Shown: positions 6,476-55,454 of the stretch, piece by piece
Layout of the letters: each line of letters begins with the position of its first letter
Position numbering within the stretch: position 1 is the stretch's first letter
Assembly (NCBI GenBank): GCA_046546395.1
Contig: JBKGXW010000001.1
Location: forward strand, 29,599 to 93,598
DNA length: 64,000 nt
Direction: 5' to 3'
Source of the DNA: Halanaerobiales bacterium
GTDB lineage: Bacteria > Bacillota > Halanaerobiia > Halanaerobiales > DTU029
The notes under the pieces: generated by a model
What the model was told of the DNA's origin: nothing
Databases searched by the model: none
Seen by the model: only the letters and a program-made list of their open reading frames with translations
Translations under genes and position numbers: made by a program

Positions 6476-6618
6476 GGTATAAACTTCTGATAATAAAATG
6501 GGAAATAATAATAAAATATGTTAATAGCCTTTTGGATTTAATATAGTTTTTTTGTATTTAAATTAATTTTAAATTTATCAATATCTAGCTGTGAGCTAAA
6601 AAACAAGGAGGAATAAAG

Positions 6619-8112: not shown

Positions 8113-8169
8113 TTAATCAGATTTCTGTAATCAACTGGTTTTCAATAAGGTATAAACAGGAGGTAAATC

Positions 8170-15334: not shown

Positions 15335-15464
15335 TTTTCTCATCTGAAATAATCTCAAGAATACTCCATCTACTTTGATTTAGGTGGTAAGGTTCACTGC
15401 ATACCTAACGATACGTGTACCTGAAAGTTGTGGACTAAATATTTTAATAAAGATGGTGAAGAAT

Positions 15465-15952: not shown

Positions 15953-16058
15953 ACGCAATGTAGATTCAGGTATGACCATATTCGATTAGGCCTCACCTGA
16001 ATCTTCAATTATAAACGCAATGTAGATTCAGGTATGACCATATTCGATTAGGCCTCAC
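15953..16058. repeat. Direct repeat: 2 x 44 bp with 62-bp period
   Basis: ACGCAATGTAGATTCAGGTATGACCATATTCGATTAGGCCTCAC occurs identically at 15953-15996 and 16015-16058. The spacer carries ACCTGAATCT, which is complementary to AGATTCAGGT in both copies. Confidence 0.9.
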
Positions 16059-16084
16059 ATGTACGGGTCCCGTTTCATATAGTG
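16057..16084 (+). promoter_or_regulatory. Possible sigma-K-type promoter of yabG
   Basis: AC-N17-CATATAGTG, compared with the consensus AC-N16/17-CATAnnnTA (one mismatch). It lies 43 bp upstream of the yabG ATG. B. subtilis yabG is sigma-K dependent. Confidence 0.3.
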
Positions 16085-16126: not shown

Positions 16127-16936
16127 ATGAAGTTCAAGATCGGAGATTTTGTTACACGAAAATCACATGCTTCGGATGTTGTATTTAGAATTGAAAAAAT
16201 AAATAACGGTATGGCATTTCTGAGAAGTTTTAAATTGAGACTAATGGCTGATGCTCCACTGGATGATCTCATTAGGATAAAGGATAAGGATAAAAAAATA
16301 TTAAAGAAAGAATTATTGATGGAATCTTTTGAATGCCTGCAGCGACAGCAGAAACACCATGTACTTAATAGCAAATTAGTTAGAGCCAAAACAAGAGAAA
16401 ATTCCTACAAAGAGTATAAAATCAGGGTTTTGCACCTTGATGGTGATAAGGATTATCTGGATTTATCAATCGCTAACTATAAAAATTTAAATATTGATGT
16501 AGTTGGATTCTATATTCCTGAAAAGGGACAACCAGAAAAAATTCCAGAACTGATTAAACAAATTAGGCCAGATATAATCGTTATAACTGGTCATGATGGC
16601 GAAGTAAACAACAAATCATTTCATACATCTGATTACTTTATAAAATCAGTCCAAATTGCCCGTAGCTTTGAATCTGATCTCGATAAATTAATTATTTTTG
16701 CTGGCGCATGTCAGTCTGATTATAAGGAGTTAATAAAGAGTGGAGCTAATTTTGCCAGTTCACCGGAGAATAAGCTAATTCATTTTCTGGATCCTATATT
16801 AGTAGTTGAAAAGATTGTGTTTACTTCTGTAAGAGATGTTCTTTCTGTAAAGGATATTATAAATAATACAATAACTGGAAGTGGCGGCATAGGAGGGGTA
16901 GAAACCAGGGGAAAAATGCGACTACAGTACCCTTAA
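16127..16936 (+). CDS. yabG: Sporulation-specific peptidase YabG (peptidase U57)
   Basis: MKFKIGDFVTRKSH..., DIIVITGHDG and FAGACQS motifs. It occupies the conserved position between rsmA and veg. Confidence 0.9.
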   Translation: MKFKIGDFVTRKSHASDVVFRIEKINNGMAFLRSFKLRLMADAPLDDLIRIKDKDKKILKKELLMESFECLQRQQKHHVLNSKLVRAKTRENSYKEYKIRVLHLDGDKDYLDLSIANYKNLNIDVVGFYIPEKGQPEKIPELIKQIRPDIIVITGHDGEVNNKSFHTSDYFIKSVQIARSFESDLDKLIIFAGACQSDYKELIKSGANFASSPENKLIHFLDPILVVEKIVFTSVRDVLSVKDIINNTITGSGGIGGVETRGKMRLQYP

Positions 16937-40479: not shown

Positions 40480-41265
40480 GTGAAGAGGTTGAGGTTGTTC
40501 AATTCTAAAATAATATTGGTATTGCTTGTGTTCTTGATAGTCTTTCATATAGGAACTGATGGTGTATTCAATTCAAATGTTGTTAATGCTGGTGGATTCT
40601 GGGAAGAACACAGAGGTAGTGTAATGACAGTAATCAAAGGTATGGTTATGTTGTGGATTATTAACCTGATGAGAGAAAATATAGGTGGTAATGAAGATGA
40701 AGATATTCTGACGTCTACTATCAAAAAGGGTCTTAATATAGGAAGTGATTCCTCAGAAGGGATTAATCAGGATGATACTGATAACTCAAATAATGATTCT
40801 TCCAGGGTTAATATTAACAGTCCTGAAAGCAAGAATAATAACAATTCAATTATTAATTACGAATATGTAACTGATGAGGAATTTGATATGCTAAAACACA
40901 TCAATGAAGTCAGGCAGGAAGAGGGTTTGAATTTGCTGGAGCTTGATATGGAACTAACCAGAATAGCCCGAAGAAAAGCTCTGGACATGATTGATAATAA
41001 TTATTTTGATCATAATTCCCCAACCTTAGGTACTCCATTTGATATGATAAAAGCCTATGAAGTTGAATATTCTCTGGCAGGAGAAAACCTGGCTGAATCT
41101 TCTTCTATAGAAGAGGCTTTCAAGTCTTTAATGGCAAGTGAGGACCATCGTAATAATATTTTCAAGTCTCGTTATGACAGGGTTGGTAATGGAATAGTGA
41201 AGAAGGACAATGGTCAATATATTATTGTTCAATTATTTATTGATAGTCCTGACCCTGCTAAATAA
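40480..41265 (+). CDS. CAP/SCP/PR1-like domain protein (YkwD-like), secreted or membrane-anchored
   Basis: N-terminal hydrophobic anchor, an Asn/Ser/Asp-rich linker, and a C-terminal CAP domain (YFDHNSPTLGTPFDM...AGENLA...HRNNI...VGNGI). The exact start is uncertain. Confidence 0.75.
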   Translation: MKRLRLFNSKIILVLLVFLIVFHIGTDGVFNSNVVNAGGFWEEHRGSVMTVIKGMVMLWIINLMRENIGGNEDEDILTSTIKKGLNIGSDSSEGINQDDTDNSNNDSSRVNINSPESKNNNNSIINYEYVTDEEFDMLKHINEVRQEEGLNLLELDMELTRIARRKALDMIDNNYFDHNSPTLGTPFDMIKAYEVEYSLAGENLAESSSIEEAFKSLMASEDHRNNIFKSRYDRVGNGIVKKDNGQYIIVQLFIDSPDPAK

Positions 41266-41432: not shown

Positions 41433-41460
41433 ACACTTTTTTAATATCAACCATATTATA
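41433..41460 (+). promoter_or_regulatory. Sigma-K-like promoter candidate
   Basis: AC (41433-41434), N17, then CATATTATA (41452-41460), compared with consensus AC-N16/17-CATAnnnTA. It shares a CACACTTT -35 context with the 43664 candidate. It lies 24 nt upstream of the ATG at 41484. Confidence 0.35.
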
Positions 41461-41483
41461 TATAGGAGAGAAGGAAGTGATGT

Positions 41484-42923
41484 ATGTTGTTCAGCTGGAC
41501 ATTATTAATAATAATCTTGATGGCTTTTATAATAGGTTTTTACTATTTATATAATTATAAAAGTTTTTATAATGAGCAAGAAATAGAAAGGAATAAAGGA
41601 GGGGGAGGGATGCTCCAGATACATGATGTGGAAGAGTTAGAATTAATCAAGGTCCCTGTAGTTATAGGGGAGAATGTTACTCAAAGAATGGAAGTGACTG
41701 ATTTAAAACTTAATATGCCTGCGATTAAGGTCAGGGATATTAATGCCAGGATTCAAAATATACAGTCTGAGGTAGTAGATGACAGGGTAATTATTCAGGC
41801 AGATATATATAAACAGATTTTTTATGTAGGAACAGATGATATTATTCATTATCAATCTGCAAACGTTCAATTCAGCACCTTTATAGATGTCCCTGGTGCT
41901 GAACCGGGTATGGAACTGGTGATTGAACCAAGTATCGAACATACTATTGGTAAATTAAGTGCAGACGGTACTATGCTCCATGAAAAAATATTGATACAAT
42001 TTTTTGTAAAAGTACTTTCTGTACAACAGTTAATGATAGAAGTTGGCTCTGGGCCCTTAGTAAAAGTAGAACGTGTTGTCGGAGAAAATACCGTAGAAAA
42101 GATGATCAGGAGTAATCTAACACTGGCAGTGGAGGCCAGTAAAATAGTAGATATTATTACTGAAGTGAAGGGGTTAGAGACTGAGGTTGTTAATGACAAA
42201 GTAATTATACAGGGGCTTGTACATAATCAACTTTTTTATATTGGAGAGGATGATGTAGAGCATCTTAAGGGTGAAGATATACCATTTACTGAATTTCTAG
42301 ATCTCCCGGGTGTAGAAACAGGGATGAATGTTCAGCTTTATCCTGCTGTAGAAAATATCAGGCAGGATTTAAGCACTGATAGGCTTAACATTACACAGGA
42401 AGTTCTAATGGAATTATTTGTGAAAGTTACTGAGAAAGTACAGATAAATGTAGTAACCGGGGATGATTCTATGGTTATGTTGCCAGAAGTAATAGGCGAG
42501 AATGTAAAACAGATTACAGATGAAACCACAATGAAGCTTGAGCAGAAGGCTCTTAATGTAAGAGAGATTAGTGCTTCGTTGGAGGATCTAAATGTAGTTG
42601 TTATTAATGACAAGGTAATTATTCATGGAAATATACATAAAACTGCCTTCTATATCGGGAAAGATAATATAGAGTACCATCAGGCTGAAATAATACCATA
42701 TAATACATTTGTAAATGTAATAGGAGCAAAACCTGGGATGAATGTAGAGATAACACCTACTATTACTTTTTCTCAACCAGTATTATCAGGAGAGGGAGGA
42801 TTTTTAACTCAGAAAGTAATTGGAGATATCTTTATTAAGGTAACAGATGATATTCAATTCAGGGTAAGCGAAGTAGGACCATATGAAGCATATAATATAA
42901 AGCCTGATTTCACAAAAAGTTAA
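41484..42923 (+). CDS. Triple DUF3794 (SipL/SPOCS-like) repeat protein with predicted N-terminal TM anchor
   Basis: Three ~135-aa internal repeats share V(V/I)GEN.V...DKVIIQG...FY(I/V)G.DD......F..F(L/I)D(V/L)PG.E.GM. A strong alternative start at ATG 41610 (after AAAGGAGGGGGAGGG) would remove the TM segment. Confidence 0.8.
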   Translation: MLFSWTLLIIILMAFIIGFYYLYNYKSFYNEQEIERNKGGGGMLQIHDVEELELIKVPVVIGENVTQRMEVTDLKLNMPAIKVRDINARIQNIQSEVVDDRVIIQADIYKQIFYVGTDDIIHYQSANVQFSTFIDVPGAEPGMELVIEPSIEHTIGKLSADGTMLHEKILIQFFVKVLSVQQLMIEVGSGPLVKVERVVGENTVEKMIRSNLTLAVEASKIVDIITEVKGLETEVVNDKVIIQGLVHNQLFYIGEDDVEHLKGEDIPFTEFLDLPGVETGMNVQLYPAVENIRQDLSTDRLNITQEVLMELFVKVTEKVQINVVTGDDSMVMLPEVIGENVKQITDETTMKLEQKALNVREISASLEDLNVVVINDKVIIHGNIHKTAFYIGKDNIEYHQAEIIPYNTFVNVIGAKPGMNVEITPTITFSQPVLSGEGGFLTQKVIGDIFIKVTDDIQFRVSEVGPYEAYNIKPDFTKS

Positions 42924-42996
42924 AACTGTTCTATTAATATTGGTGGAAGACAGACCAGGGATTAATTTCAGGGAAAATTAATGTTAATAATAATTT

Positions 42997-43025
42997 ATAA
43001 GCCTGGATCTAAGCTCCAGGCTTAT
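42997..43025. terminator. Bidirectional hairpin between convergent genes
   Basis: Perfect 11-bp stem ATAAGCCTGGA-TCTAAGC-TCCAGGCTTAT. The flanks are A/T-rich rather than clean U tracts. Confidence 0.65.
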
Positions 43026-43130
43026 AATAGGTTAAATATCTTACTTTTGATAGTTTTCAGATTCAAGAGGATTATTTTGCGATTTTAATAAAAATGAAGG
43101 TGAAAGCGAGGAGAAGAATTAGGTAAAGAC

Positions 43131-43562
43131 TTACAAGTTCCGGGTAGGTTCATTGACATGAGCTATATCTAATCTTTCACTTGTTTCTCCGTTATATAAA
43201 ATAAATAAAACCTGATCTTTATAGAAGTATTTTGTAGTAACAGTAAAAAGTTGATATGTTCCACTTTCTACTTCTCCTACCATAATTACTTCATATCCTC
43301 TATATTTTACTAGATCTGCTGTTCCGTTTTTTATTATTACTGCAAGCTCCCCTTTGCTAATACTATAGTTCTCATTATATTGTAGAAAAGCCAATTTTTT
43401 CTTTAATCTTTCTTCTTCCAGATAAGTATATACATTGGCTCTGGTCGTTCCTGAAGTTCTTTTTGTATCCCATGTTTTTTCATTATAGCGGTCCAGTGGT
43501 ATATATTGCACTGCGGGATACTTAAATATCTCCCGGGAATATCCAAATGGCATGATTTTCAC
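43131..43562 (-). CDS. Hypothetical protein (143 aa), no recognised family
   Basis: Clean ORF with GGAGGTG 7 nt upstream of the ATG. It lies between two DUF3794 genes and is preceded by a sigma-K-like promoter. Confidence 0.6.
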   Translation of the reverse strand: MKIMPFGYSREIFKYPAVQYIPLDRYNEKTWDTKRTSGTTRANVYTYLEEERLKKKLAFLQYNENYSISKGELAVIIKNGTADLVKYRGYEVIMVGEVESGTYQLFTVTTKYFYKDQVLFILYNGETSERLDIAHVNEPTRNL

Positions 43563-43571
43563 CTCCAGAAT

Positions 43572-43599
43572 ATTTTATGAGAAATGCAGTCCTGATGTG
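43572..43599 (-). promoter_or_regulatory. Sigma-K-like promoter candidate for the 143-aa orphan gene
   Basis: The minus strand reads AC-N17-CATAAAATA, an exact fit to AC-N17-CATAnnnTA. It ends 4 nt before the GGAGGTG RBS. Confidence 0.35.
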
Positions 43600-43663
43600 C
43601 AAAATATTTTTGTCATAATTAACAATAGAGTTTTATATACATTAGTATAGAAAATAGATTTTC

Positions 43664-43690
43664 ACACTTTAGCTGTTTATGCATATATTA
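43664..43690 (+). promoter_or_regulatory. Sigma-K-like promoter candidate
   Basis: AC (43664-43665), N16, then CATATATTA (43682-43690). It lies 42 nt upstream of the TTG start at 43732. Confidence 0.35.
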
Positions 43691-43731
43691 TAAGTGATAA
43701 GTTTAATAACTTTTAGAAAGGAGGAATCAGA

Positions 43732-45414
43732 TTGGCCGTTAATTTTAATGAAGAGCTGATCAGGGTCGAATACGTTATTGGCGAAGAGACAGTAACAGAA
43801 TCAATTACCGGAACCATAACCATACCTGATGAAAAGCCCCCTGCAGAGAGGATTATTGATGTAAAGGAATTTGGAATAAATAATCTGCAGACCACTATAG
43901 AAGAAGGTGGCGTTGATATAACAGGGGATATTGAGGTAGGTGTGACATACGTAGGAATTGTGGAAGAGACAGAACCTCAACAACCTGTACACTTTGTGCA
44001 TGATACATTGAGAGTTAGCAATTTTGTTGATATTCCTGAAGCAGAGCCAGGTATGAATGTTTTTGTGGATATTACTGTTAGAAGAGTTTCTTTTGATCAG
44101 ATTGATATTCCACCACTTGAACCAGACGAAGATTTCCCGGGGGTAACGACACTTGAGGTTACGGTTGTTATTCAGAAATTTGTCAAGGTTACTGAGTATA
44201 GACAGATTACTGTAATTACCGAAATTACCGGGGTTCCCGAAGAAAATGTAAGAGAGGAACTTCTCAGGATTGAAGATGTTATTGGTGAAAATACAGTAAC
44301 TGTTGTAGTCAGTGGTGAGTTGACACCACCACCTGAATTGGAAAAACCCCCAATAGAAAGAATTCTGAGTGCAACGGCTGAATTGGAAGGTGAAGTTGAG
44401 ACTGACATTACAGAAGATGGTGTAATTATTGATGGTGAAATTTTTGCTGGAGTAATGTATGTCGGTATTGTTGAAGAAGACGAACCTCAACAACCAGTGC
44501 ATTTTCTGGAAGATACCTTTAATTTTAGCGAAACAGTCGATGTAGCTGGTGCAGAAGAAGGTATGTCGGCCCACGTTAACCTGGCAATTCAGAAGATTTC
44601 ATATGATGAAATATTTGATGAAGACGGTAATATTGTTACAGTTGAAGTAGATGTAGTTCTCCGTATGTTTGTTAAAATTACAGAACCTAAGCAGGTTTCA
44701 GTAATTGTAGATGTTATTAGTGATGAGGTTGAACTTGAAAGGGAGTTGCTCAGGGTAGAGGATGTTGTTGGTGAAGATACAATTCATGAGACAACGACTC
44801 AGAGATTGCTAATACCTGAGGCTGATCCAATCAAACCACCTGCAACAAGAATAATTGATTCACAGGCCAGAATAGTAGATCGCGATGTTACAGTAGAATC
44901 TGGTGGGGTTTTACTTGATATGGTTATTGAAGGAAGTATCATCTATGTAGGAGCCGTGGAAGATACTGAACCGCAGCAACCTGTTCATTTCTATCATGAT
45001 ACATTCCCATATGATAACTTCATCGATATATCTGGTGCAGAGCCCGGTATGAACGCCCATGTCGAAGTTGAGGTAACCAAATCTTCTGCTGAACTTGTTA
45101 ATATAAATGCTGCAGGAAATACCAGACAGGTTGATATCACAGTAGTTATCAGGAAGTTTGCCAAGGTTACTGAATTTAGACAGCTGGAAATTATAACTGA
45201 TATCATAGTTGTATCTCCGGCCGCCGATGGAGAATGTCCACCATCTTATGTAGTCTATGTAGTTCAGGCTGGGGATACATTATACAAAATCTCCAGAAGA
45301 TATAGAACAACTGTGGATGCATTGATTCAGGCTAACCCTGATATAAATCCAAACAACCTACAGGTAGGTCAGAAAATCTGTGTACCAAGTGAAATTATCA
45401 GTCCGCGAGGATAA
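43732..45414 (+). CDS. Triple DUF3794 (SipL/SPOCS-like) repeat protein with C-terminal LysM domain
   Basis: Three ~185-aa repeats each contain EL(I/L)R(V/I)E.V(I/V)GE.T, Y VG(I/A)VE(E/D)(T/D)EPQQPVHF and (A)E(P/E)GM. The C-terminus YVVQAGDTLYKISRRYRTTVDALIQANPDINPNNLQVGQKICVP is a LysM domain. The TTG start follows AAAGGAGG. Confidence 0.85.
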   Translation: MAVNFNEELIRVEYVIGEETVTESITGTITIPDEKPPAERIIDVKEFGINNLQTTIEEGGVDITGDIEVGVTYVGIVEETEPQQPVHFVHDTLRVSNFVDIPEAEPGMNVFVDITVRRVSFDQIDIPPLEPDEDFPGVTTLEVTVVIQKFVKVTEYRQITVITEITGVPEENVREELLRIEDVIGENTVTVVVSGELTPPPELEKPPIERILSATAELEGEVETDITEDGVIIDGEIFAGVMYVGIVEEDEPQQPVHFLEDTFNFSETVDVAGAEEGMSAHVNLAIQKISYDEIFDEDGNIVTVEVDVVLRMFVKITEPKQVSVIVDVISDEVELERELLRVEDVVGEDTIHETTTQRLLIPEADPIKPPATRIIDSQARIVDRDVTVESGGVLLDMVIEGSIIYVGAVEDTEPQQPVHFYHDTFPYDNFIDISGAEPGMNAHVEVEVTKSSAELVNINAAGNTRQVDITVVIRKFAKVTEFRQLEIITDIIVVSPAADGECPPSYVVYVVQAGDTLYKISRRYRTTVDALIQANPDINPNNLQVGQKICVPSEIISPRG

Positions 45415-45422
45415 GACGATAA

Positions 45423-45458
45423 GGACTGTGGGGCATTAACCTACAGTTCTTTTTTTTT
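45423..45458 (+). terminator. Rho-independent terminator
   Basis: GGACTGTGGG ... CCTACAGTTC stem (with G-U pairs) followed by T9. Confidence 0.75.
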
Positions 45459-45775
45459 GATCTAATTATATTTCTTTATAGAAAACAAAATATTTCTATA
45501 AGTTAATAGAATGAAAGCATAAGGTCATATATTCTTTATATAGAGTAGATGGCCTTAATTTTTTTCGAGAGTAAACTGTTATTAATACTCCAGAGCGTGT
45601 TCTTTTGGTTATCCTGTAGGGAAGACTTTCTTTGAAACTAGACTTCACTTTATCTTGTAAACTATATGGATATTCTAACTTTAATCACAAATTCTAAATT
45701 ATTGGCATACATTAATAGTGATAAAACTTCTAGTCGATCCAGCCAATGCCTGGAGTTATTTACCACAGTCAATTT

Positions 45776-45784
45776 CATATATTA
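45776..45784 (+). promoter_or_regulatory. Sigma-K-like -10 box (no matching -35)
   Basis: CATATATTA is identical to the -10 candidate at 43682, and both continue as CATATATTATAA. There is no AC at the expected -35 distance. Confidence 0.2.
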
Positions 45785-45816
45785 TAAATAAGAAAGATCA
45801 ACGGGGAGGATTGAAA

Positions 45817-45909
45817 ATGGCTGAAAACAAGAAGAAATCACCTAAAAGCAAAAAGGTGAATGTTAGACCTCATAAGATTAAAAAAGCAATTAAAATTAAA
45901 AAAGCATAG
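45817..45909 (+). CDS. Putative 30-aa lysine-rich peptide
   Basis: MAENKKKSPKSKKVNVRPHKIKKAIKIKKA. The ATG lies 7 nt after GGGGAGGA. The stop lies 14 nt before the next gene, which has its own RBS. The ORF is short and low-complexity, so this call is tentative. Confidence 0.35.
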   Translation: MAENKKKSPKSKKVNVRPHKIKKAIKIKKA

Positions 45910-45923
45910 AAAGGAGGTTAGTT

Positions 45924-47456
45924 ATGCCGCAGCAATTGCGTATTGACGAAACAATTGTTTCCAGAGTACTGGAAACTGAAATAATCAAAAATCTGGGAAT
46001 ACCCTCCCAATTACCTGATGTGGAAAGGGTAGTCAGCGTTAATGCCAGAGTTGAAATAAGCAGCATTGAACTTGAAACAGGTTCTGTTGTGATTAATGGG
46101 ATTATCAGGGCTACTGTATATTATGCCTCTCAGGATGATCCATCTGATGTAATAAGTGTCAGGAGGAACTTTACTTTTTCAGATAGAATTGCTGTTGCTG
46201 GAGCTAGACGGGGACTTGACGCAGACGCAGAAGTACTTATCACAGATATAGATTTCAATGTAGTTAATAATCGAACTATTGGACTTGAATTCACATTAAC
46301 TATTGACCTTGACCTGACTGCGCCTGATACTGTACCATTGATTGAAGAAAGAGAGGATGTAGATATTCGGCGTGAAAGATTTAGAATACAGCGTAGTATC
46401 AGGGAAAGAAACTATACAAGAGAACTTGTAGAAACTATTAGAATTGATACAGATATGCCAAATATAAGAAGAGTTGTTGATGTAGATAATAGTATCCAGA
46501 TATCAGAAATAACCACTAATTATGACAGAGTAAGGGTTCGAGGAATAATAGATAGTGACTTATTATATGTAGATCAGAATGGACAACTGGAATACGAGGA
46601 TCTTACGTATGGTTTTAATGAGTCTTTTTCATTTACTGGAGTAACACCTGATATGGATGCTTATGTTGAAACCAATATTATCAGCGAGGAAGTAGAATTA
46701 ATAGATAGACGAAGGGTCAGGATAACTTCAGAAGTAATCTTTACCATACTGGTAATTGAAGAGGAATTAGTTGAAATACCGACTGATATTGTTAGCCCTG
46801 TAGACAGGGTATCTCCGGTTAGAAGGAATGTTATAGTAGAAAGGGTCGTTGTTGAGGAAAGGACCAGAGTTTCCGCCAGAGATAGGGTGACTATTCCCCA
46901 GGGTAATCCTGATATTGCACGTGTTATCAGTGCAAGTGGCAATATTCGAGGAGGTAGTATTGAGGTAGATGCTCAAAACGGTGGGGTTTTAGTAAGTGGT
47001 GTTATTGATGCTAATATCATTTATGTGGCAGACTTAGAAGATCAACCTGTCTACTTTGCACCTGCTACCGTTACATTTAGTACTTTTATAGATATTCCTG
47101 AAGTGGAGACAGATATGCAGGCTTATGCTGATATAGATCTTAACAGAATAACTGCTTCTGGAATAAATGAAAGGGAAATAAGTGTCAGGGCCATTCTTGA
47201 TGTTAACTTACTTGTAACAGAAAGGGTACGTGTCCCTGTAATAACAAGTATTTCAGATCGTCCTACACAACAGCCGGAGCAACCAGCGGCACCTGCGCCT
47301 GGTCAGCAAGTCACCTATGTTGTCCAATCGGGTGACACTCTTTATCTTATTGCTCAAAAGTTCAGTGTAACAGTTGATAGAATAATTTCAGTTAATAATA
47401 TAACTAATCCAGGGAATTTACAGGTAGGACAGCGCCTGATAATACCAGGAGATTAG
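45924..47456 (+). CDS. DUF3794 (SipL/SPOCS-like) repeat protein with C-terminal LysM domain
   Basis: Three divergent DUF3794-type modules (for example V.INGIIRATVYYA, VRGIIDSDLLYVD and VSGVIDANIIYVA, each followed by F..F...(A/T)...(L/M)DA). A Pro/Gln linker precedes the LysM domain YVVQSGDTLYLIAQKFSVTVDRIISVNNITNPGNLQVGQRLIIP. Confidence 0.85.
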   Translation: MPQQLRIDETIVSRVLETEIIKNLGIPSQLPDVERVVSVNARVEISSIELETGSVVINGIIRATVYYASQDDPSDVISVRRNFTFSDRIAVAGARRGLDADAEVLITDIDFNVVNNRTIGLEFTLTIDLDLTAPDTVPLIEEREDVDIRRERFRIQRSIRERNYTRELVETIRIDTDMPNIRRVVDVDNSIQISEITTNYDRVRVRGIIDSDLLYVDQNGQLEYEDLTYGFNESFSFTGVTPDMDAYVETNIISEEVELIDRRRVRITSEVIFTILVIEEELVEIPTDIVSPVDRVSPVRRNVIVERVVVEERTRVSARDRVTIPQGNPDIARVISASGNIRGGSIEVDAQNGGVLVSGVIDANIIYVADLEDQPVYFAPATVTFSTFIDIPEVETDMQAYADIDLNRITASGINEREISVRAILDVNLLVTERVRVPVITSISDRPTQQPEQPAAPAPGQQVTYVVQSGDTLYLIAQKFSVTVDRIISVNNITNPGNLQVGQRLIIPGD

Positions 47457-47755: not shown

Positions 47756-48859
47756 ATGTTCGCCAGGTTAAAAATACTACTTATTTTCGTTCCTATTAGC
47801 ATAGGGGTTTCTTATTTTATGGATGGTTCTTTAATATCCTTTGTTTCATCAGCTCTGGCCATTATACCCCTGGCTGCTTTAATGTCCAGTTTAACTGATC
47901 AACTTCGTTCACAGATAGGGAGCAGCTGGGGTGGTTTAATAAATGTAACTTTCGGGAATGCAACAGAATTAATAATATCTATATTTGCTTTATATGACGG
48001 ATTGTTGAATGTAGTGAAAGCAAATATAACAGGCTCTATAATAATGAATCTACTCTTAGTATTGGGGCTGTCTTTTTTTCTGGGTGGTTTAAGATATCAG
48101 AGGCAGGAATTTGATAAACTACTGGCAATTACAAATAGCGCAATGCTCATGCTGGCAGTAATAGGCATGTTAGTACCTGCGATCTTTTATTTTGGGTCAC
48201 CGAATATCAGGACAGTGATTCTGGGCCGTCTGAGTATAGGAGTGGGCTTTGTTTTGTTTTCAACTTATATTGCAAGTCTATATTTTACGCTGATTTTTCA
48301 TGAGAGAGAGAAGAAAAACAGAAAGAAAACTAAAGGAAGTCAGGAAAGGGTTTATTTTTCAGTAGATCCTGAATATATCGAAACTGGTAAGAAAGAGAAA
48401 ACACGACCTTTAGCTCGAAATGTCATTTATTTGTTTATAACAACCTCTTTTATTGCAATAGAAGCCAGTATTCTTGTAGGTTCTATATCTATTCTTCAGG
48501 AAAGGTTTAATATTTCTCCTGTTTTTATAGGAATCATTATCCTGCCAATTATTTCTAATGTTGCAGAAAACGTAACTGCTGTAAGAATGGCTAGAGAAAA
48601 TAAGATTGATTTGAGTATTACAATAGCAATAGGTTCAAGTATCCAGGTGGCACTATTCCTGGTGCCATTATTAATTTTTTTCAGTCATCTGACTTCAAAT
48701 CCAATGAATGTTTTATTTAATATACTGGAAATCAGTACAATCGGGCTTTCTGTTCTGGCTATTAATGTGATTTACTTACAGGGCAAGTCAAACTGGTTTG
48801 AAGGACTGCAGTTGATTGCTGCTTACCTGATAATTGCGATAGCATTCTTTTTTGCATAA
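47756..48859 (+). CDS. Ca2+/H+ antiporter (CaCA family, ChaA/YfkE-like)
   Basis: Alpha-repeat signatures GNATELIISIFAL and SNVAENVTAV, with 10-11 TM helices and a central basic loop. Confidence 0.85.
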   Translation: MFARLKILLIFVPISIGVSYFMDGSLISFVSSALAIIPLAALMSSLTDQLRSQIGSSWGGLINVTFGNATELIISIFALYDGLLNVVKANITGSIIMNLLLVLGLSFFLGGLRYQRQEFDKLLAITNSAMLMLAVIGMLVPAIFYFGSPNIRTVILGRLSIGVGFVLFSTYIASLYFTLIFHEREKKNRKKTKGSQERVYFSVDPEYIETGKKEKTRPLARNVIYLFITTSFIAIEASILVGSISILQERFNISPVFIGIIILPIISNVAENVTAVRMARENKIDLSITIAIGSSIQVALFLVPLLIFFSHLTSNPMNVLFNILEISTIGLSVLAINVIYLQGKSNWFEGLQLIAAYLIIAIAFFFA

Positions 48860-49015: not shown

Positions 49016-49576
49016 TTATTTATCAGTGCGGGTGGGGATTTTTAGTTTCTGACCTGGGTAGATTGAATCACTCTCAAGTTCATTAATCCTCTTTATTTCA
49101 GCTACTGAAACATTGTATTTACGACTGATCTTCCAGAGGGAATCCCCCTTATGTACTGTATAAACAAAATATGAATTATTATTTGAATCAGATGAAGAAT
49201 CTGAAGGATCATCTTTTGGATGCTCTATATTCCCTGTGAATGACTGTCGAATAATAATGGGAGTCCCCACAGAAACCTTACTGTATACTGCTTCTGCATC
49301 TTTATTGTACATCCTCACACAGCCAAGAGAGACTGCCTGACCTATTAGATGAGGTTGGTTTGTTCCATGTATACCGTGTTCTCTCCAGGTAAACTGCATC
49401 CAGCGTGTCCCCAGTATGCCGCCAGGGTTGTAGATTTTATTTAATATTTTAAAATCACCCGTAGGAGTAGGAGTAGATGGTTTACCTACTGCTACCGGGA
49501 ATATATTGACCACTTGATTGTTATTTTTCAATATTAGGCGACGTGTATTTGTTTCGATATAAATTTTGTGGGTCAA
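49016..49576 (-). CDS. L,D-transpeptidase (YkuD fold) with C-terminal LysM domain
   Basis: Catalytic motif HGIHGTN...SLGCVRM. C-terminal LysM YTVHKGDSLWKISRKYNVSVAEIKRINELESDSIYPGQKLKIP. The TTG start follows GGGAGG. Confidence 0.85.
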   Translation of the reverse strand: MTHKIYIETNTRRLILKNNNQVVNIFPVAVGKPSTPTPTGDFKILNKIYNPGGILGTRWMQFTWREHGIHGTNQPHLIGQAVSLGCVRMYNKDAEAVYSKVSVGTPIIIRQSFTGNIEHPKDDPSDSSSDSNNNSYFVYTVHKGDSLWKISRKYNVSVAEIKRINELESDSIYPGQKLKIPTRTDK

Positions 49577-50775: not shown

Positions 50776-50858
50776 CATATAAATAATCCCTTCAGTGAAT
50801 GGTCATACTAGTAATTGAAAATCTAATATTACTAATTGTTGGGAAAGGGTATGATCTT

Positions 50859-51671
50859 GTGGGCGAAAAAGCTAGAGGTACTATGTTATTAATAGGGGGG
50901 GCGGAGGATAAAAAAAGGGATAAAGAAATATTAAAAAGATTTATTACTTTGTCAGAAGAAAGTAATTCATATATTGTTGTACTAACTTCAGCTACTTCAG
51001 AACCTGATACTGTTGGAAAGGAGTATCATAATGTTTTTAAAAAATTGGGTGCAGATAATATTAAGGTTCTCAATATAGATAATAGAAAAAAGGCAGTCGA
51101 TCCAGGATACTCTCATATAATAGAAAAAGCCGGTGGTATCTTTTTTACAGGGGGTGATCAATTAAGGATTACCAGTATATTTGGTGGTTCAAGAATATAT
51201 GAAGGTCTAAAAAAAGCTTATGAAAATGGATCAATCATCGCTGGCACCAGTGCGGGAGCATCGGTTGTAAGTGATATTATGATAGTTGGAGGCCGTGGCA
51301 ATGATAGTCCGGGATTTGATAGTGTGCGTCTGGCTTCAGGGCTGGGGCTGCTGGAAGAGGTTGTGGTCGATCAACACTTTGCACAGCGGGGAAGGATGAA
51401 TCGCCTACTGATGGCAATTGCATATAATCCATATATACTGGGTATTGGAATAGATGAAGATACTGCAATTGAGATAAATTCTAATGCTGTCGCCACTGTA
51501 ATGGGAAACAGGACCGTTATGGTACTTGATGGTAAGGATATAACACATAGCAATATATCGGAAATAGGTGAAAATCAACCCCTTGCTTTACTGGGTGTAA
51601 GGGTCCATATCCTACCAGCCGGGTATAAATATAATCTTAGAAATAGGGAGATAATAATATCTGAAACATAA
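50859..51671 (+). CDS. cphB: Cyanophycinase (peptidase S51)
   Basis: LLIGGAEDK, FFTGGDQ and GTSAGA (nucleophile Ser) motifs. The start is uncertain: GTG 50859 or ATG 50883. The ORF-track start at 50799 adds an atypical extension. Confidence 0.85.
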   Translation: MGEKARGTMLLIGGAEDKKRDKEILKRFITLSEESNSYIVVLTSATSEPDTVGKEYHNVFKKLGADNIKVLNIDNRKKAVDPGYSHIIEKAGGIFFTGGDQLRITSIFGGSRIYEGLKKAYENGSIIAGTSAGASVVSDIMIVGGRGNDSPGFDSVRLASGLGLLEEVVVDQHFAQRGRMNRLLMAIAYNPYILGIGIDEDTAIEINSNAVATVMGNRTVMVLDGKDITHSNISEIGENQPLALLGVRVHILPAGYKYNLRNREIIISET

Positions 51672-51770
51672 GCTACATCTGGATATTTCCTCTATGAATC
51701 TGAAAATAGAAAAGAGTATATAAGTAGTATTATTAAGATGCTAAAGATCCAGTTAACAGGAGGTATAGAA

Positions 51771-54434
51771 TTGAAGATTATATCACATCGTTTAATGAAA
51801 GGGCCTAACCTATATACCTATTCGCCTGTTATAGAGACAATATGTGATCTTGATAGCTTTGACCAAGTGGAAAGTAAGGATATCAAAGGATTTAATAAAT
51901 CTGTAATAAAATATTTTCCAGGATTACTTGATCATAGTTGTTCAGAGGGCAGAAAAGGAGGGTTTTTAAAAAGGCTGAAAGAAGGAACTTATCTGGGACA
52001 TATAATCGAACACCTCAGTCTTGAAATACAGGTTTTGCTTGGATATGATGTTTATTATGGAAAAACCATCTGGATAGAAGGTAGCTGCTATAAGCTTATA
52101 ACTGAATATATAGTAGAGGAAATTGCTCAATTTGCAGTAGAAACAGCTTTAGAATTTGTACTGGCTCTGGCTGAGCAAACTGATACAGAACTTATTCTTA
52201 ATAAACTAAAAAATGAAGGAGAAAAGATTGTAAGACGCTATGGGATAGGGCCAAGTACCAGAGCATTAATTGATTCAGCGAAGAAAAGGAATATACCAGT
52301 TATCCCTCTTGATAAAGAGAATTGTCTCTATCAACTGGGATATGGAAAAAGACAAAAAAGGATTGAAGCCACAATAAGCTCAACAACTTCCTGCATAGCA
52401 GTGGATATTGCCAGTAACAAAATGCAGACAAATGAATTGCTGAGGGATGCGGGTTTGCCTGTTCCCAGGGGTTTTATTCTGGAAAATATTATTGAGTTGA
52501 AAGATGTGATCTGTCATCTAGAGACACCCCTTGTTGTAAAACCCTTTAACTGCAATCATGGGAAAGGAGTCAGCCTGAATATAAACAACTGGTATGAATT
52601 AAAAAAAGCCTTTTATCGTGCACGAAAATATAGTAGAAAAATTATTGTTGAGGAATATATAGTAGGGAAAGACTATAGATTGTTAGTAGTAGGGAATAGG
52701 ATGATTGCAGCAGCGGAGAGGAAACCTCCTCATATCAGAGGAGACGGGAAAAACAACATAAGAAAATTAATAGAGCAGATTAACGATTCTACATTGAGGG
52801 GAGATGGTCATGAAAAACCATTGACCCGCATAAAAATAGATGAAGTAATAATAAAACACCTACAGGCTGAGGGATATAATCTGGATACCATTCCAGAAAA
52901 GAATCAAATTATTTTTTTGAGGCATAATGGTAATTTAAGTACTGGAGGTACTGCAGAGGATATAACAGGGCAGGTTCATCCCCTGAATATGGAACTGGCT
53001 ATCAGGGCTGCTCATGTTATCGGTCTTGATATAGCAGGTATTGATATAATAGCACAGGATATAAGGGTTCCCCTTTTACAACAGGAGGGTGTGATTATAG
53101 AAGTTAATGCCTCGCCTGGTATAAGAATGCACCTTTATCCCTCTATAGGAAAAAGTAGACCTGCTGCTGATGCTATTATTGATCATCTTTTCCCGGATAA
53201 TGATGGTCGAATTCCAGTAATTTCTATCACCGGAACAAATGGTAAAACAACTACTACACGATTACTGGCAGAGATATTCAGTCAGGTATATGAAAATGTA
53301 GGTTATACTACTACTGATGGGACTTATATTAATGATCAATGTATTATACCAGGTGATAATACTGGACCTATTAGTGCAAAATCATTACTTAAGGAACCAA
53401 TAGTAGATATAGTAATTCTAGAAACTGCAAGGGGTGGTATAATTCGGGAAGGGCTGGGATACCATCAAAGTGATATAGGTGTTATTTTAAATATTACTGA
53501 AGACCACCTGGGAGTAGATGGGATAGAAACCCTGGCAGATCTTGCCTTCATTAAATCTTTAGTTATTGAGACTGTAAAAAAAACAGGAAATTGTGTGTTG
53601 AATGCCGATGATCCAACAGTTTTGAGATTGTCAGAGAGGGCTTCCGCACCTATCGTATATTTCTCGCAGAAGAATAATAATGTAATAATCACAAACCATT
53701 GTAATAATGGTGGGAAAGCAGTTTATATAGAAAACGGCAATATAGTACATCAAAAAGGAGACTTAAAGGAAGTTGTATTTCGTGATGTCAGGAACATCCC
53801 TATTACTTTTGGAGGCAGAGCTAAACACAATGTTGAAAATATATTGGCAGCGACTTCAGTAGCCCTTAGTCGCGGGATTGATAAAAGATACATAGAAAAG
53901 GCTTTGAGCTCTTTTGGTAGTAACTGGTCAGATAATACTGGTCGATTAAATATTTTTCAGACAATAGGACTTAAAGTGATTCTTGATTATGGCCATAACC
54001 CGGCTGGTTTTGAAAAAGTCTTCAAGTTTATGAAGAAGCTGGAGGGTGAAAGGTTAGTTGGAATAGTTGGTCTGCCAGGAGACAGGAATGATGACTTAAT
54101 TATAAAGGCGGGAAAGATTATAGCTGATTACCTTGATGTAGTGTACATAAAAGAGGATATGGATTTACGAGGAAGAAAAGCCGGTGAAGTAGCTGGATTA
54201 TTAAGAAAAGCACTTCTCGAAAATAATTATCAGGGCCTGTATTCATATATATCTGCAGAAAGTGATGCCCTGGAAATGGCTTTAAGTAATGCTATACCCG
54301 GTGATATAATTGTCTGTTTTTATGAAAAAAACCCCGAAAAGCTTATCAGGATTATAAGGCAGGGAATGCTGGAATTTGAAACAAAGGAAGCAGTTGTAGA
54401 TCAAAAAACCAGAAAAAGTCTTATAATAGATTAA
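51771..54434 (+). CDS. cphA: Cyanophycin synthetase
   Basis: An N-terminal domain, an ATP-grasp domain (LVVKP...GKGV...YRLLVV) and a Mur-ligase-like domain (ITGTNGKTTT). TTG at 51771 lies 7 nt after AGGAGG and yields the typical M-K-I-(I/L) N-terminus. Confidence 0.9.
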   Translation: MKIISHRLMKGPNLYTYSPVIETICDLDSFDQVESKDIKGFNKSVIKYFPGLLDHSCSEGRKGGFLKRLKEGTYLGHIIEHLSLEIQVLLGYDVYYGKTIWIEGSCYKLITEYIVEEIAQFAVETALEFVLALAEQTDTELILNKLKNEGEKIVRRYGIGPSTRALIDSAKKRNIPVIPLDKENCLYQLGYGKRQKRIEATISSTTSCIAVDIASNKMQTNELLRDAGLPVPRGFILENIIELKDVICHLETPLVVKPFNCNHGKGVSLNINNWYELKKAFYRARKYSRKIIVEEYIVGKDYRLLVVGNRMIAAAERKPPHIRGDGKNNIRKLIEQINDSTLRGDGHEKPLTRIKIDEVIIKHLQAEGYNLDTIPEKNQIIFLRHNGNLSTGGTAEDITGQVHPLNMELAIRAAHVIGLDIAGIDIIAQDIRVPLLQQEGVIIEVNASPGIRMHLYPSIGKSRPAADAIIDHLFPDNDGRIPVISITGTNGKTTTTRLLAEIFSQVYENVGYTTTDGTYINDQCIIPGDNTGPISAKSLLKEPIVDIVILETARGGIIREGLGYHQSDIGVILNITEDHLGVDGIETLADLAFIKSLVIETVKKTGNCVLNADDPTVLRLSERASAPIVYFSQKNNNVIITNHCNNGGKAVYIENGNIVHQKGDLKEVVFRDVRNIPITFGGRAKHNVENILAATSVALSRGIDKRYIEKALSSFGSNWSDNTGRLNIFQTIGLKVILDYGHNPAGFEKVFKFMKKLEGERLVGIVGLPGDRNDDLIIKAGKIIADYLDVVYIKEDMDLRGRKAGEVAGLLRKALLENNYQGLYSYISAESDALEMALSNAIPGDIIVCFYEKNPEKLIRIIRQGMLEFETKEAVVDQKTRKSLIID

Positions 54435-54563: not shown

Positions 54564-55454
54564 ATGAATCAGATAGTAGTCCCTGCTCCGGCTAAAATAA
54601 ATCTTGCCCTTGATATTTTAGGGGTAAGGAGTGACGGCTACCATGAAGTCGAAATGATTATGCAGTCGATTAGTCTTCATGATAATATAATTATCAAAAA
54701 GAAGGAAGAAGGTATTAAATTAGCGACGTCTAATCTAGATCTTCCAGAGGATGAAAACAATATAGCATATAAAGCTGCCCGTCTAATAATTGACAAAGCT
54801 GAGTTAACTGAAGGAGTAGATATATACATTGAAAAAAACATTCCTGTAGCTGGGGGACTGGCAGGAGGAAGTACAGATGCAGCTGCTGTATTGAATGGGA
54901 TTAATATGTTATATAATCTCGATTTGTCTGAAGATGAATTAAAAAAACTGGCTTCAAAGCTTGGTTCAGATGTCCCTTTCTGTATCAGAGGTGGAACAGC
55001 CCTGGCATATGGTAGAGGAGAAATGATACGGCAATTACCTGATATAGAAAAACAGTATCTTGTACTTGTAAATCCGGGTATTTCTATCAGTACTGCTTGG
55101 GCCTATAGCGAATATGATAAAGGGATTCAAAGACTTAAAATTCCTGGAGTTCCTGTAGATAAACTAACATCTAAGCTAACGACTGATAAAAAGATTAATT
55201 GGGCAGAGGGATGGTTCAATGTTCTTGAAGAAGTAGCTGAAAGTTTTTATCCAGAAATAATTGATATTAAGGAACTATTAAATGAAATGGGTGCCATATT
55301 TACCCTGATGTCTGGTAGTGGTTCTACGGTTTTTGCAGTTGTAAACAATCTGGAAACCGCAGGAAATATCAGGGAAAATTGGCCCAGGTCAGATGATTAT
55401 ATTACCACAGCCTGGACTGTAAAGGAGGATTTTTCAGAGCTGTGGCGAAAATAG
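54564..55454 (+). CDS. ispE: 4-diphosphocytidyl-2-C-methyl-D-erythritol kinase
   Basis: APAKINL.LDI, GHMP-kinase motif PVAGGLAGGSTDAAA and SGSGSTVF. Confidence 0.95.
   Translation: MNQIVVPAPAKINLALDILGVRSDGYHEVEMIMQSISLHDNIIIKKKEEGIKLATSNLDLPEDENNIAYKAARLIIDKAELTEGVDIYIEKNIPVAGGLAGGSTDAAAVLNGINMLYNLDLSEDELKKLASKLGSDVPFCIRGGTALAYGRGEMIRQLPDIEKQYLVLVNPGISISTAWAYSEYDKGIQRLKIPGVPVDKLTSKLTTDKKINWAEGWFNVLEEVAESFYPEIIDIKELLNEMGAIFTLMSGSGSTVFAVVNNLETAGNIRENWPRSDDYITTAWTVKEDFSELWRK

What the first reader, a model, noticed from the sequence alone, without database searches (positions are those of the whole stretch)
41433..47456. Island of three multi-module DUF3794 (SipL-like) genes, two with LysM, behind sigma-K-like promoters: a possibly expanded spore-envelope assembly module
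Three + strand genes (41484-42923, 43732-45414, 45924-47456) are each built from three copies of one module, giving nine copies in 6 kb.

The recurring signature is V-x-G-E-x-(T/V) ... (I/V)-x-G-x-(I/V)-x-x-x-(I/V/L)-(F/Y)-Y-(V/I)-(G/A) ... F-x-x-F-(I/L/V)-D-(I/V/L)-x-(G/E)-(A/V)-E-x-(G/D)-M. The three repeats of the middle protein keep an invariant EPQQPVHF block.

I recognise the module as DUF3794 (SPOCS), the fold of the clostridial coat morphogenetic protein SipL. As in SipL, two of these proteins end in a LysM domain. The first protein instead has a predicted N-terminal TM helix.

As far as I know SipL is single-copy where it has been studied. Here there are three paralogues, interleaved with a 143-aa orphan on the opposite strand and a 30-aa Lys-rich mini-ORF.

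The first two paralogues and the 143-aa orphan are preceded by AC-N16/17-CATAnnnTA boxes that match the mother-cell sigma-K consensus. Two of these share a CACACTTT -35 context. The third paralogue has only the -10 box, with no matching -35.

The same window encodes an OmpM-type outer-membrane anchor. These proteins might therefore organise a spore envelope in a diderm Firmicute, where coat assembly is essentially uncharacterised.
Basis: partly seen in the sequence, partly recalled or inferred. Interest (0 to 1): 0.72.

Follow-up and report, generated by a model that had tools for sequence, protein, structure and literature searches.

The report
Expanded SipL spore-coat locus, Halanaerobiales
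This is a real cluster of three SipL-like (triple-SPOCS) spore-coat assembly genes plus two small conserved partner genes, sitting where Clostridia keep their single sipL gene; it is conserved across the whole order Halanaerobiales, so it is an uncharacterised lineage variant of a known system and not something special to this genome.

Summary
Three + strand genes each carry three SPOCS/DUF3794 modules (Pfam E 5e-39, 8e-52, 1.5e-36), and the second and third end in LysM.

The island is not unique. The window is a Halanaerobiales MAG, and the same cluster occurs in Halothermothrix orenii, Iocasia, Acetohalobium, Halanaerobium and others. It always lies between YkwD/CAP and ispE on the ksgA-yabG-veg...ispE...glmU backbone, which is exactly where Clostridium and Tepidanaerobacter keep one 3xSPOCS+LysM (SipL-type) gene.

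The order-wide core is P2 (43732-45414) plus a divergently transcribed 140-aa gene with a confident predicted fold that has no PDB match. P3 is a within-order duplicate of P2 and is always preceded by a conserved 30-aa basic mini-ORF. P1 belongs to an older lineage without LysM, and its N-terminal membrane helix is ancestral.

All four transcription units carry AC-N16/17-CATAnnnTA boxes conserved in position across orthologous loci.

All genes are under purifying selection (dN/dS 0.03-0.18).

Best reading: mother-cell-expressed coat morphogenetic proteins. The link to the outer membrane is untested, and the family is not known to sporulate.

The parts
41433..41460 (+). Promoter-like box of the P1 unit: AC-N17-CATATTATA in a CACACTTT -35 context
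   Evidence: The same box (CACAyTTT...CCATATTATA) precedes the TM ORF or P1 orthologue in 7 of 7 Halanaerobiales loci that have P1.
41484..41609 (+). N-terminal transmembrane-helix segment, in frame with P1 (a separate small ORF in the closest relatives)
   Evidence: MLFSWTLLIIILMAFIIGFYYLYNYK matches the conserved N-terminal helix SWxILxGxxxGFxIGTYYLYxYW of 540-650-aa orthologues. It is a separate ORF in L001, L004 and L005. NCBI's annotation omits it.
41484..42923 (+). P1: 3 x SPOCS, no LysM, 0 Cys (479 aa, or 437 aa from the alternative start at ATG 41610)
   Evidence: Pfam PF12673 E 4.8e-39, three stretches. Orthogroup defined. Clade with the L012/L013/L021 pairs 191/200. dN/dS 0.12.
42995..43027 (.). 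Hairpin between the convergent P1 and orphan genes (terminator-like, 13 bp stem)
43131..43553 (-). Conserved 140-aa Halanaerobiales-specific protein, divergently transcribed from P2; unknown fold
   Evidence: 35 homologues, all Halanaerobiales or unclassified Bacillota MAGs, no Pfam or NCBIfam match. Present directly upstream of the P2 orthologue in all 11 loci examined. AF2 pLDDT 88, pTM 0.83, no PDB match. Not a SPOCS module. dN/dS 0.18.
43571..43598 (-). Promoter-like box of the 140-aa gene: ACA-N16-CATAAAATA
   Evidence: Conserved at -26/-27 from the ATG in the window, L003, L004 and L005. The implied 5' UTR is very short.
43664..43690 (+). Promoter-like box of P2: CACACTTT-N11-GCATATATTA
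   Evidence: Conserved at -45 to -55 in 7 of 8 loci, plus near-identical boxes in Orenia and Halonatronum. Also reads as sigma-A-like TTCACA-17-TATATT, 10/12.
43732..45414 (+). P2: SipL-type protein, 3 x SPOCS + C-terminal LysM, 560 aa, TTG start; core gene of the cluster
   Evidence: Pfam SipL 7.8e-52 and LysM 5.6e-17. Full-length orthologues across the order. Best match of the Tepidanaerobacter-group singletons. dN/dS 0.029. AF2 model shows 3 x six long beta-strands + LysM.
45421..45451 (+). Intrinsic-terminator-like hairpin + T-run after P2
45687..45714 (+). Promoter-like box of the mini-ORF/P3 unit: AC-N17-CATACATTA
   Evidence: GCATATATTA boxes at the equivalent position in L003, L004 and L005.
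45817..45909 (+). Conserved 30-aa basic mini-ORF (MAENKKKSPKSKKVNVRPHKIKKAIKIKKA), 14 nt upstream of the P3 start
   Evidence: GGAGG-N7-ATG. Homologous 30-35-aa ORFs with 12-14 K+R and a fixed 14-19 nt gap to P3 in L001, L003, L004 and L005, and also in Halanaerobium L086.
45924..47456 (+). P3: second SipL-type protein, 3 x SPOCS + LysM, 510 aa, 0 Cys; fast-evolving duplicate of the P2 lineage
   Evidence: Pfam SipL 1.5e-36 and LysM 3.5e-16. Monophyletic 200/200, and nested with P2 in a Halanaerobiales clade 165/200. Absent from the Acetohalobium, Natroniella, Orenia and Halonatronum loci. dN/dS 0.083.
40480..41265 (+). YkwD/CAP-family gene, conserved upstream flank of the sipL slot
   Evidence: PF00188 6.6e-18; TIGR02909 spore_YkwD 1.3e-40, below cut-off. 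Syntenic in Halanaerobiales and in Tepidanaerobacter-group loci.
16127..16936 (+). yabG sporulation peptidase (backbone marker, sporulation-specific gene in the same window)
   Evidence: TIGR02855 equivalog, 284.4 bits > cut-off 270.4. Upstream CACAT-N15-CATATAGTG.
54564..55454 (+). ispE (downstream backbone marker of the sipL slot)
   Evidence: GHMP kinase domains. ispE follows the SipL-like gene in Clostridium and Tepidanaerobacter loci.

Best explanation
The region is the Halanaerobiales version of the clostridial sipL locus, expanded in place into a five-gene set of spore-coat morphogenesis genes that are transcribed in the mother cell.

Shown here:
- The proteins are SPOCS-family. P2 and P3 have the SipL architecture.
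- The cluster occupies the ancestral sipL slot between YkwD/veg and ispE.
- The genes and their AC...CATAnnnTA promoters are conserved and under purifying selection.

Inferred:
- Late in sporulation a mother-cell sigma factor transcribes four units: TM-P1, the 140-aa gene, P2, and mini-ORF+P3. The -35 AC points to sigma-K, but sigma-E is not excluded.
- P2, the conserved SipL orthologue, is recruited to the forespore surface through its LysM domain binding SpoIVA, as in C. difficile. Its three SPOCS modules fold into a single-chain pseudo-trimeric 'tripod' that acts as a hub for further coat proteins.
- The EPQQPVHF loop, repeated once per module and conserved across species, is a candidate three-fold contact site.
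- The divergently transcribed 140-aa protein is a lineage-specific partner of P2.
- P3 with its basic mini-protein is a younger, specialised second hub.
- P1, which lacks LysM but has a membrane helix fused or adjacent, places a SPOCS tripod at a mother-cell-derived membrane, plausibly the outer forespore membrane.
- The Cys-poor composition puts all three proteins in the organiser class (SipL/CotE-like), not the disulphide-cross-linked lattice class (CsxA/CsxC/CdeC-like).
For: - Domains.
- Canonical SipL = 3 x DUF3794 + LysM; SipL binds SpoIVA through LysM: (PMC6436350; bioRxiv 10.64898/2026.09.03.749163).
- Synteny ksgA-orf186-yabG-veg-(CAP)-SipL-like-ispE-NTP transferase-glmU in about 25 Clostridium/Tepidanaerobacter loci, with the same backbone in the window. 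C. difficile sipL = CD3567 and yabG = CD3569.
- Cluster conserved in all 11 Halanaerobiales loci examined, including the described spore-formers Orenia and Halonatronum.
- Promoter boxes conserved in sequence and position across 23 orthologous promoters. The -35 AC is the sigma-K discriminator. yabG in the same window has a similar box.
- Purifying selection, dN/dS 0.03-0.18.
- Aromatic residue after GDTL in every LysM of the family.
- Cys counts 0/2/0.
- No signal peptide on P2 or P3 (N-termini).
- A sporulation-specific yabG in the window.
- Halanaerobiales genomes retain spo0A and most sporulation genes.
Against: - There are no expression or localisation data.
- The window does not show spoIVA, sigE or sigK, so the sporulation competence of this MAG is unverified.
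- Cultured Halanaerobiaceae, H. orenii and the sequenced A. arabaticum strain are listed as non-spore-formers.
- The loose promoter motif is not enriched window-wide, and the P2 box also fits sigma-A at 10/12.
- C. difficile sipL is sigma-E-dependent, not sigma-K-dependent.
- The AF2 model of P2 has a low pTM (0.45), so the tripod arrangement is not demonstrated. No solved structure matches the SPOCS part.
- Equivalence of the post-GDTL aromatic residue with C. difficile W475 was not verified, because no C. difficile sequence was available.
Confidence: 0.68

Rival explanations
1. The proteins, or at least P1 and P3, are structural, lattice-forming spore-envelope components like CsxA/CsxC/CdeC, and not morphogenetic hubs. 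They would build a coat or exosporium layer themselves.
For: The SPOCS fold is used by both classes. P1 lacks LysM, as CsxA and CsxC do. P1-group relatives are numerous and architecturally diverse. Some Halanaerobiales paralogues are Cys-rich, for example 11-15 Cys in L007.
Against: The window proteins have 0, 2 and 0 cysteines, whereas the structural class is defined by many Cys that form disulphide networks. P2 and P3 have the SipL architecture and sit at the SipL position.
Confidence: 0.17
2. The genes are vegetative cell-envelope or peptidoglycan-associated proteins of a non-sporulating diderm lineage. They would be transcribed by the housekeeping sigma factor, with LysM binding peptidoglycan.
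For: Halanaerobiaceae have no known spore-formers. The P2 box matches sigma-A at 10/12. LysM usually binds peptidoglycan. Neighbouring genes (PspC, LiaF-like, YkuD L,D-transpeptidase) are envelope-related.
Against: P2 and P3 have no signal peptide or TM segment, so their LysM domains would stay in the cytoplasm. The conserved positions in the promoters are CACA and CATA, not TTG and TATAAT. The locus is the sipL slot next to yabG. The same genes occur in spore-forming Orenia and Halonatronum.
Confidence: 0.08
3. The cluster is a decaying relic of a lost sporulation programme and has no current function.
For: The family is reported as asporogenous. P1 shows fusion/fission and loss of its linker, and the Halanaerobium MAG has lost P1.
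Against: All four genes are intact with dN/dS 0.03-0.18 at dS of about 0.65-1.0. Promoters, RBSs, the TTG start of P2 and the 30-aa mini-ORF are all conserved.
Confidence: 0.05

Closest known systems
Clostridioides difficile SipL (CD3567)
   Same: P2 and P3 have three tandem DUF3794/SPOCS domains plus a C-terminal LysM. They are Cys-poor, their genomic position is next to yabG/veg and ispE, and they carry a mother-cell-type promoter. An aromatic residue follows GDTL in the LysM domain.
   Different: There are three paralogues instead of one. The -35 is AC (sigma-K-like), whereas C. difficile sipL has a mapped sigma-E promoter. P2 has an extra conserved EPQQPVHF loop in each module. P2 is paired with an order-specific 140-aa gene. 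P1 lacks LysM and has a TM helix. Core identity to Clostridium orthologues is only about 20-25%.
Bacillus subtilis SpoVID
   Same: It is a SPOCS domain + LysM coat morphogenetic protein that interacts with SpoIVA and is the functional analogue of SipL.
   Different: SpoVID has one N-terminal SPOCS domain. Its LysM is dispensable for SpoIVA binding. The TIGR02907 model matches P2 and P3 only over the LysM domain and far below its cut-off.
CotE (B. subtilis) and CsxA/CsxC/CdeC (Clostridium spp.)
   Same: They have SPOCS-fold spore-envelope proteins without LysM that form three-legged assemblies, and P1 resembles them in lacking LysM.
   Different: Those proteins are single-SPOCS subunits that trimerise. 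CsxA, CsxC and CdeC are Cys-rich lattice builders. P1 is a single chain with three modules, 0 Cys, and a membrane helix.
Tandem SipL-like pairs in uncultured Bacillota (loci L012, L013, L021)
   Same: Two adjacent 3xSPOCS genes sit in the veg-CAP slot. Their first gene is the closest LysM-bearing relative of the P1 core (clade support 191/200).
   Different: Both genes keep LysM. There is no TM helix, no 140-aa gene and no mini-ORF.

Membership tests
SPOCS / DUF3794 domain family (Pfam PF12673) | Significant match to the family HMM above the gathering score | tested here: met
   132.9, 173.9 and 124.9 bits against a cut-off of 23.6, with three stretches in each protein.
SipL (clostridial coat morphogenetic protein) | Architecture: three DUF3794 domains followed by one C-terminal LysM | tested here: met
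   Met for P2 and P3 (architecture definition). Not met for P1, which has no LysM.
SipL (clostridial coat morphogenetic protein) | Orthologous genomic position (yabG-veg...sipL...ispE) | tested here: met
   Synteny across about 25 Clostridium/Tepidanaerobacter loci and the window. CD3567/CD3569 adjacency.
SipL (clostridial coat morphogenetic protein) | LysM domain binds SpoIVA; an aromatic residue is needed at the W475 position | tested here: inconclusive
   Tyr follows GDTL in P2 and P3, and W/F/Y in all relatives. Equivalence to W475 is assumed, not verified, and binding cannot be tested here.
SipL (clostridial coat morphogenetic protein) | Sigma-E-dependent transcription (-35 ATA) | tested here: not met
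   All four boxes have AC(A) at -35 and no ATA. Discriminator taken. This is a sequence-only test.
SipL (clostridial coat morphogenetic protein) | Required for coat localisation and heat-resistant spores | not testable with these tools
   Needs genetics in a sporulating Halanaerobiales strain.
SpoVID (TIGR02907) | Full-length match to the equivalog model | tested here: not met
   20.5 and 22.3 bits against a cut-off of 169.85, over the LysM region only.
SafA/ExsA (TIGR02899 LysM subfamily) | Score above the subfamily cut-off | tested here: not met
   43.5 and 31.7 bits against a cut-off of 67.85.
Cys-rich SPOCS lattice proteins (CsxA/CsxC/CdeC) | Many cysteines (14-24 per subunit) for disulphide cross-linking | tested here: not met
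   0, 2 and 0 Cys. Criterion taken.
Sigma-K-type mother-cell promoters | AC-N16/17-CATAnnnTA upstream of the gene | tested here: met
   Four boxes, correctly oriented 18-104 nt from start codons and conserved in orthologous loci. The actual sigma dependence cannot be tested here.

The most novel reading that the evidence does not exclude
Halanaerobiales, and perhaps other diderm Firmicutes, assemble their spore envelope with a multi-component SPOCS system that has no counterpart in Bacillus or C. difficile. A membrane-anchored, LysM-less tripod (P1) would tether coat material to the outer forespore membrane, the membrane that is proposed to become the outer membrane of the germinated diderm cell. 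A SipL-type hub (P2) would work with an order-specific 140-aa protein of new fold. A second hub (P3) would depend on a 30-aa polybasic peptide. The whole set would be switched on by sigma-K and not sigma-E.
Probability: 0.12. Interest if true: 0.7.

Novelty: new variant of a known kind. Interest (0 to 1): 0.4.

Why it matters
Spore-coat assembly is understood in Bacillus (SpoIVA-SpoVM-SpoVID-SafA-CotE) and partly in C. difficile (SpoIVA-SipL). Nothing is known for the diderm, halophilic Halanaerobiales.

This analysis gives a concrete, conserved candidate gene set with a clear evolutionary history. It is an in-place expansion of the sipL locus, with two previously unnoticed conserved small genes and four footprinted promoters.

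It also bears on whether 'asporogenous' Halanaerobiaceae really never sporulate. Coat-morphogenesis genes and their promoters are under strong purifying selection, which is hard to reconcile with a lost pathway.

The practical value is as a target list for genetics and transcriptomics. It is not a new principle.

Tried and rejected
1. Orphan as a cryptic single SPOCS module: hhalign probability 0.1%. Rejected.

2. Orphan fold assignment: a confident AF2 model has no PDB hit (best E 0.2, TM < 0.3), and there is no Pfam or NCBIfam family. Function remains unknown.

3. Mini-ORF as a SpoVM-like amphipathic helix: helical hydrophobic moment 0.11 against 0.53 for SpoVM, and below the shuffle mean. 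Rejected.

4. SPOCS part of P2 against solved structures, by sequence and by fold: only LysM matches. The tripod could not be confirmed (pTM 0.45).

5. Window-wide enrichment of AC-N16/17-CATAnnnTA: none (7 observed vs 7.2 expected). The motif count alone is not evidence.

6. The genome-collection scan chose a LysM peptide as its pattern, so about 55 of the 80 loci were LysM-only hits in Chloroflexota and other phyla. Only about 25 loci were informative, and Negativicutes could not be surveyed.

7. The exhaustive search with P3 was swamped by multi-LysM proteins. It shows only that full-length P3-type representatives are few.

8. Rfam and tRNA scans of the window found nothing.

9. The P1 'TM helix' as an ORF-calling artefact: considered because of the internal SD+ATG and the NCBI start. 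Rejected as a pure artefact because the helix is homologous to the N-terminus of many orthologues. The fused-versus-separate question stays open.

Full report
**1. What is there**

The three + strand ORFs are at the stated coordinates.
- Each matches Pfam PF12673 (SipL, SPOCS domain) in three stretches, at 125-174 bits against a 23.6-bit cut-off.
- P2 (43732-45414) and P3 (45924-47456) end in a LysM domain. P1 (41484-42923) does not.
- The three P2 modules share an extra EPQQPVHF loop, and this loop is also conserved across 18 orthologues.
- The proteins contain 0, 2 and 0 cysteines.
- An AlphaFold2 model of P2 (pLDDT 77.5) is three repeats of six long beta-strands followed by a LysM fold. Its pTM is only 0.45, so the mutual arrangement of the modules is not established.
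- Nothing in the PDB matches the SPOCS part, either by sequence or by fold.

**2. Organism and context**

P2 is 100% identical to a protein annotated 'SPOCS domain-containing protein' in a Halanaerobiales MAG (contig of 94.7 kb). It has full-length orthologues throughout the order.

The window also encodes:
- an SLH + beta-barrel (OmpM-like) protein;
- ksgA, a bona fide yabG sporulation peptidase (above the NCBIfam equivalog cut-off) and veg;
- ispE and glmU.

**3. The cluster is not unique**

Gene contexts in H. orenii-like, Acetohalobium, Iocasia, Halothermothrix DTU029, Natroniella, Orenia, Halonatronum, Halanaerobium and MAG loci all show a SPOCS cluster at the same place.
- The invariant core is the P2 orthologue plus a divergently transcribed gene of about 135-140 aa directly upstream. 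This pair is present in 11 of 11 loci.
- P1-type genes (one to three copies) and the P3 gene vary between lineages.
- Outside the order, Clostridium, Lachnospiraceae and the Tepidanaerobacter group have a single 3xSPOCS+LysM gene.
- Three uncultured Bacillota have a tandem pair.

**4. Positional orthology with sipL**

In about 25 Clostridium/Tepidanaerobacter loci the order is ksgA-orf186-yabG-veg-(YkwD/CAP)-SipL-like-ispE-NTP transferase-glmU.
- In C. difficile, sipL is CD3567 and yabG is CD3569.
- The window has the same backbone, with the SPOCS cluster between YkwD/CAP and ispE.
- The cluster is therefore an in-place expansion of the ancestral sipL locus.

**5. History of the paralogues**

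phmmer scores define three clean orthogroups. A neighbour-joining tree of the SPOCS cores (442 columns, 200 bootstraps) gives:
- P3 monophyletic, 200/200.
- All LysM-bearing Halanaerobiales forms (P2+P3) in one clade, 165/200. So P3 is a fast-evolving, within-order duplicate of the P2 lineage.
- P1 grouped with the tandem pairs of L012/L013/L021, 191/200. This is an older second lineage that in Halanaerobiales lost LysM.

Distance trees at this divergence are only indicative.

**6. The P1 N-terminus**

- NCBI starts P1 at the internal ATG 41610 (437 aa), which follows a very strong Shine-Dalgarno sequence.
- Yet the upstream 42 codons encode a helix homologous to the conserved N-terminal TM helix of 540-650-aa orthologues in Iocasia, Halocella, Anoxybacter, Frackibacter and many MAGs.
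- In the closest relatives this helix is a separate small ORF behind the same promoter.
- The membrane helix is therefore an ancestral part of the P1 unit. In this genome it may be fused, separate through internal initiation, or both.

**7. Two overlooked conserved genes**

The 140-aa minus-strand gene (43131-43553):
- It is restricted to Halanaerobiales, with 35 homologues and no Pfam or NCBIfam family.
- It folds confidently (pLDDT 88, pTM 0.83) and has no structural neighbour in the PDB.
- It is not a SPOCS module.

The 30-aa polybasic mini-ORF (45817-45909):
- It is present wherever P3 is present.
- It keeps a fixed 14-19 nt gap to the P3 start codon.
- It does not look like an amphipathic helix of the SpoVM kind.

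**8. Promoters**

Strict AC-N16/17-CATAnnnTA matches are no more frequent in the window than in shuffled sequence (7 vs 7.2).
- Four of the seven lie in the cluster's intergenic DNA, on the right strand, 18-104 nt upstream of the four first genes.
- Alignment of 23 orthologous promoters shows conserved (t/g)CACAyTT at -35 and (G/C)CATAwwwTAta at -10, at conserved distances from the start codons.
- Near-identical P2 boxes occur in Orenia and Halonatronum.
- According to TSS mapping in C. difficile, sigma-E and sigma-K share the -10 and differ at -35, ATA versus AC. The boxes here are of the AC type.
- The window's yabG, sigma-K-dependent in C. difficile, has a similar CACAT...CATATAGTG box.
- C. 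difficile sipL itself is sigma-E-dependent, so this would be a regulatory difference.
- The P2 box also scores 10/12 as a sigma-A promoter. The conserved positions (C instead of G in the -35, the C of CATA) argue against sigma-A but cannot exclude it.
- Terminator-like hairpins separate the units.

**9. Are the genes functional?**

- For the unsaturated pair L004/L005, dN/dS is 0.116 (P1), 0.183 (140-aa gene), 0.029 (P2) and 0.083 (P3).
- The unusual TTG start of P2, the RBSs and the promoters are all conserved.
- This contradicts a relic interpretation. The tension is that Halanaerobiaceae have no described spore-formers, while Halanaerobiales genomes retain spo0A and most sporulation genes.

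**10. Mechanism**

By homology, position and promoter type, the best-supported model is mother-cell-expressed coat morphogenetic proteins.
- P2 would act like SipL: LysM-mediated recruitment by SpoIVA and a tripod hub for coat proteins. The LysM domains of P2 and P3 keep an aromatic residue after GDTL, as do all clostridial homologues. This is probably the position of W475 needed for SpoIVA binding in C. difficile, but I could not verify the equivalence.
- P1 would place a SPOCS tripod at a membrane.
- The 140-aa protein and the mini-peptide would be lineage-specific partners.
- These steps are inferences.
- The suggested connection with the outer membrane is untested.

**11. Verdict**

The novelty claim is weakened because the cluster is an order-wide feature that is already annotated at domain level.

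What is new is the recognition of the cluster as an expanded sipL locus. It has a conserved partner gene of unknown fold, a conserved mini-ORF, an ancestral membrane anchor on the LysM-less paralogue, and sigma-K-type promoters.

Noticed in passing
window 15953-16060: A direct repeat of about 44 bp, present twice (acgcaatgtagattcaggtatgaccatattcgattaggcctcac), lies immediately upstream of yabG. It is followed by a CACAT-N15-CATATAGTG box.
   Followed up: no
window 275-301 (+), upstream of 327-1914: A strict AC-N16-CATAAGATA box sits 26 nt upstream of phosphosulfolactate synthase and 2-phosphosulfolactate phosphatase genes. A sulfolactate pathway may be under a mother-cell-type promoter (sulfolactate is a known spore solute in B. 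subtilis, from my own knowledge).
   Followed up: no
window 15384-15944: A 186-aa ORF with no family match is conserved between ksgA and yabG in the window, the Tepidanaerobacter group and the L012/L013/L021 loci (43-51% identity).
   Followed up: partly
window 47756-48859 and 49016-49576 (-): A Ca2+/H+ exchanger (TIGR00378, 323 bits) and a YkuD-type L,D-transpeptidase with LysM flank the cluster. Both are syntenic across Halanaerobiales, and the YkuD-LysM gene is also next to the tandem pairs in L012/L013/L021.
   Followed up: partly
window 50799-54434: Cyanophycinase and cyanophycin synthetase genes are inserted between the cluster and ispE. They are absent at this position in H. orenii-like and Acetohalobium loci.
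   Followed up: no
window 56755-57831 (-): A double P-loop STAND-like NTPase is conserved at the same position (after purR/NTP transferase) in Acetohalobium arabaticum (52% identity).
   Followed up: no
P1-group proteins P0156-P0275; loci L003, L007: LysM-less 3xSPOCS proteins fall into three size classes: <=460 aa (bare); 461-700 aa, many with an N-terminal TM helix and a linker of about 150 aa carrying a YE[FY]AYQNNTNF motif; and >700 aa with long charged N-terminal regions or extra modules. Capillibacterium members (644 aa) have an unrelated N-terminal TM helix.
   Followed up: partly
L084 (Orenia marismortui) 4192-8687; L085 (Halonatronum) 5545-6574: In the two spore-forming Halobacteroidaceae, mobile elements (a group II intron reverse transcriptase and transposases) occupy the space upstream of the orphan-P2 pair, where other genera have P1-type genes.
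   Followed up: no
L002 (Acetohalobium arabaticum) 715-2785 and 8559-9356: Two CryBP1-family genes and a GvpL/GvpF-family gene are interleaved with the SPOCS genes in Acetohalobium.
   Followed up: no
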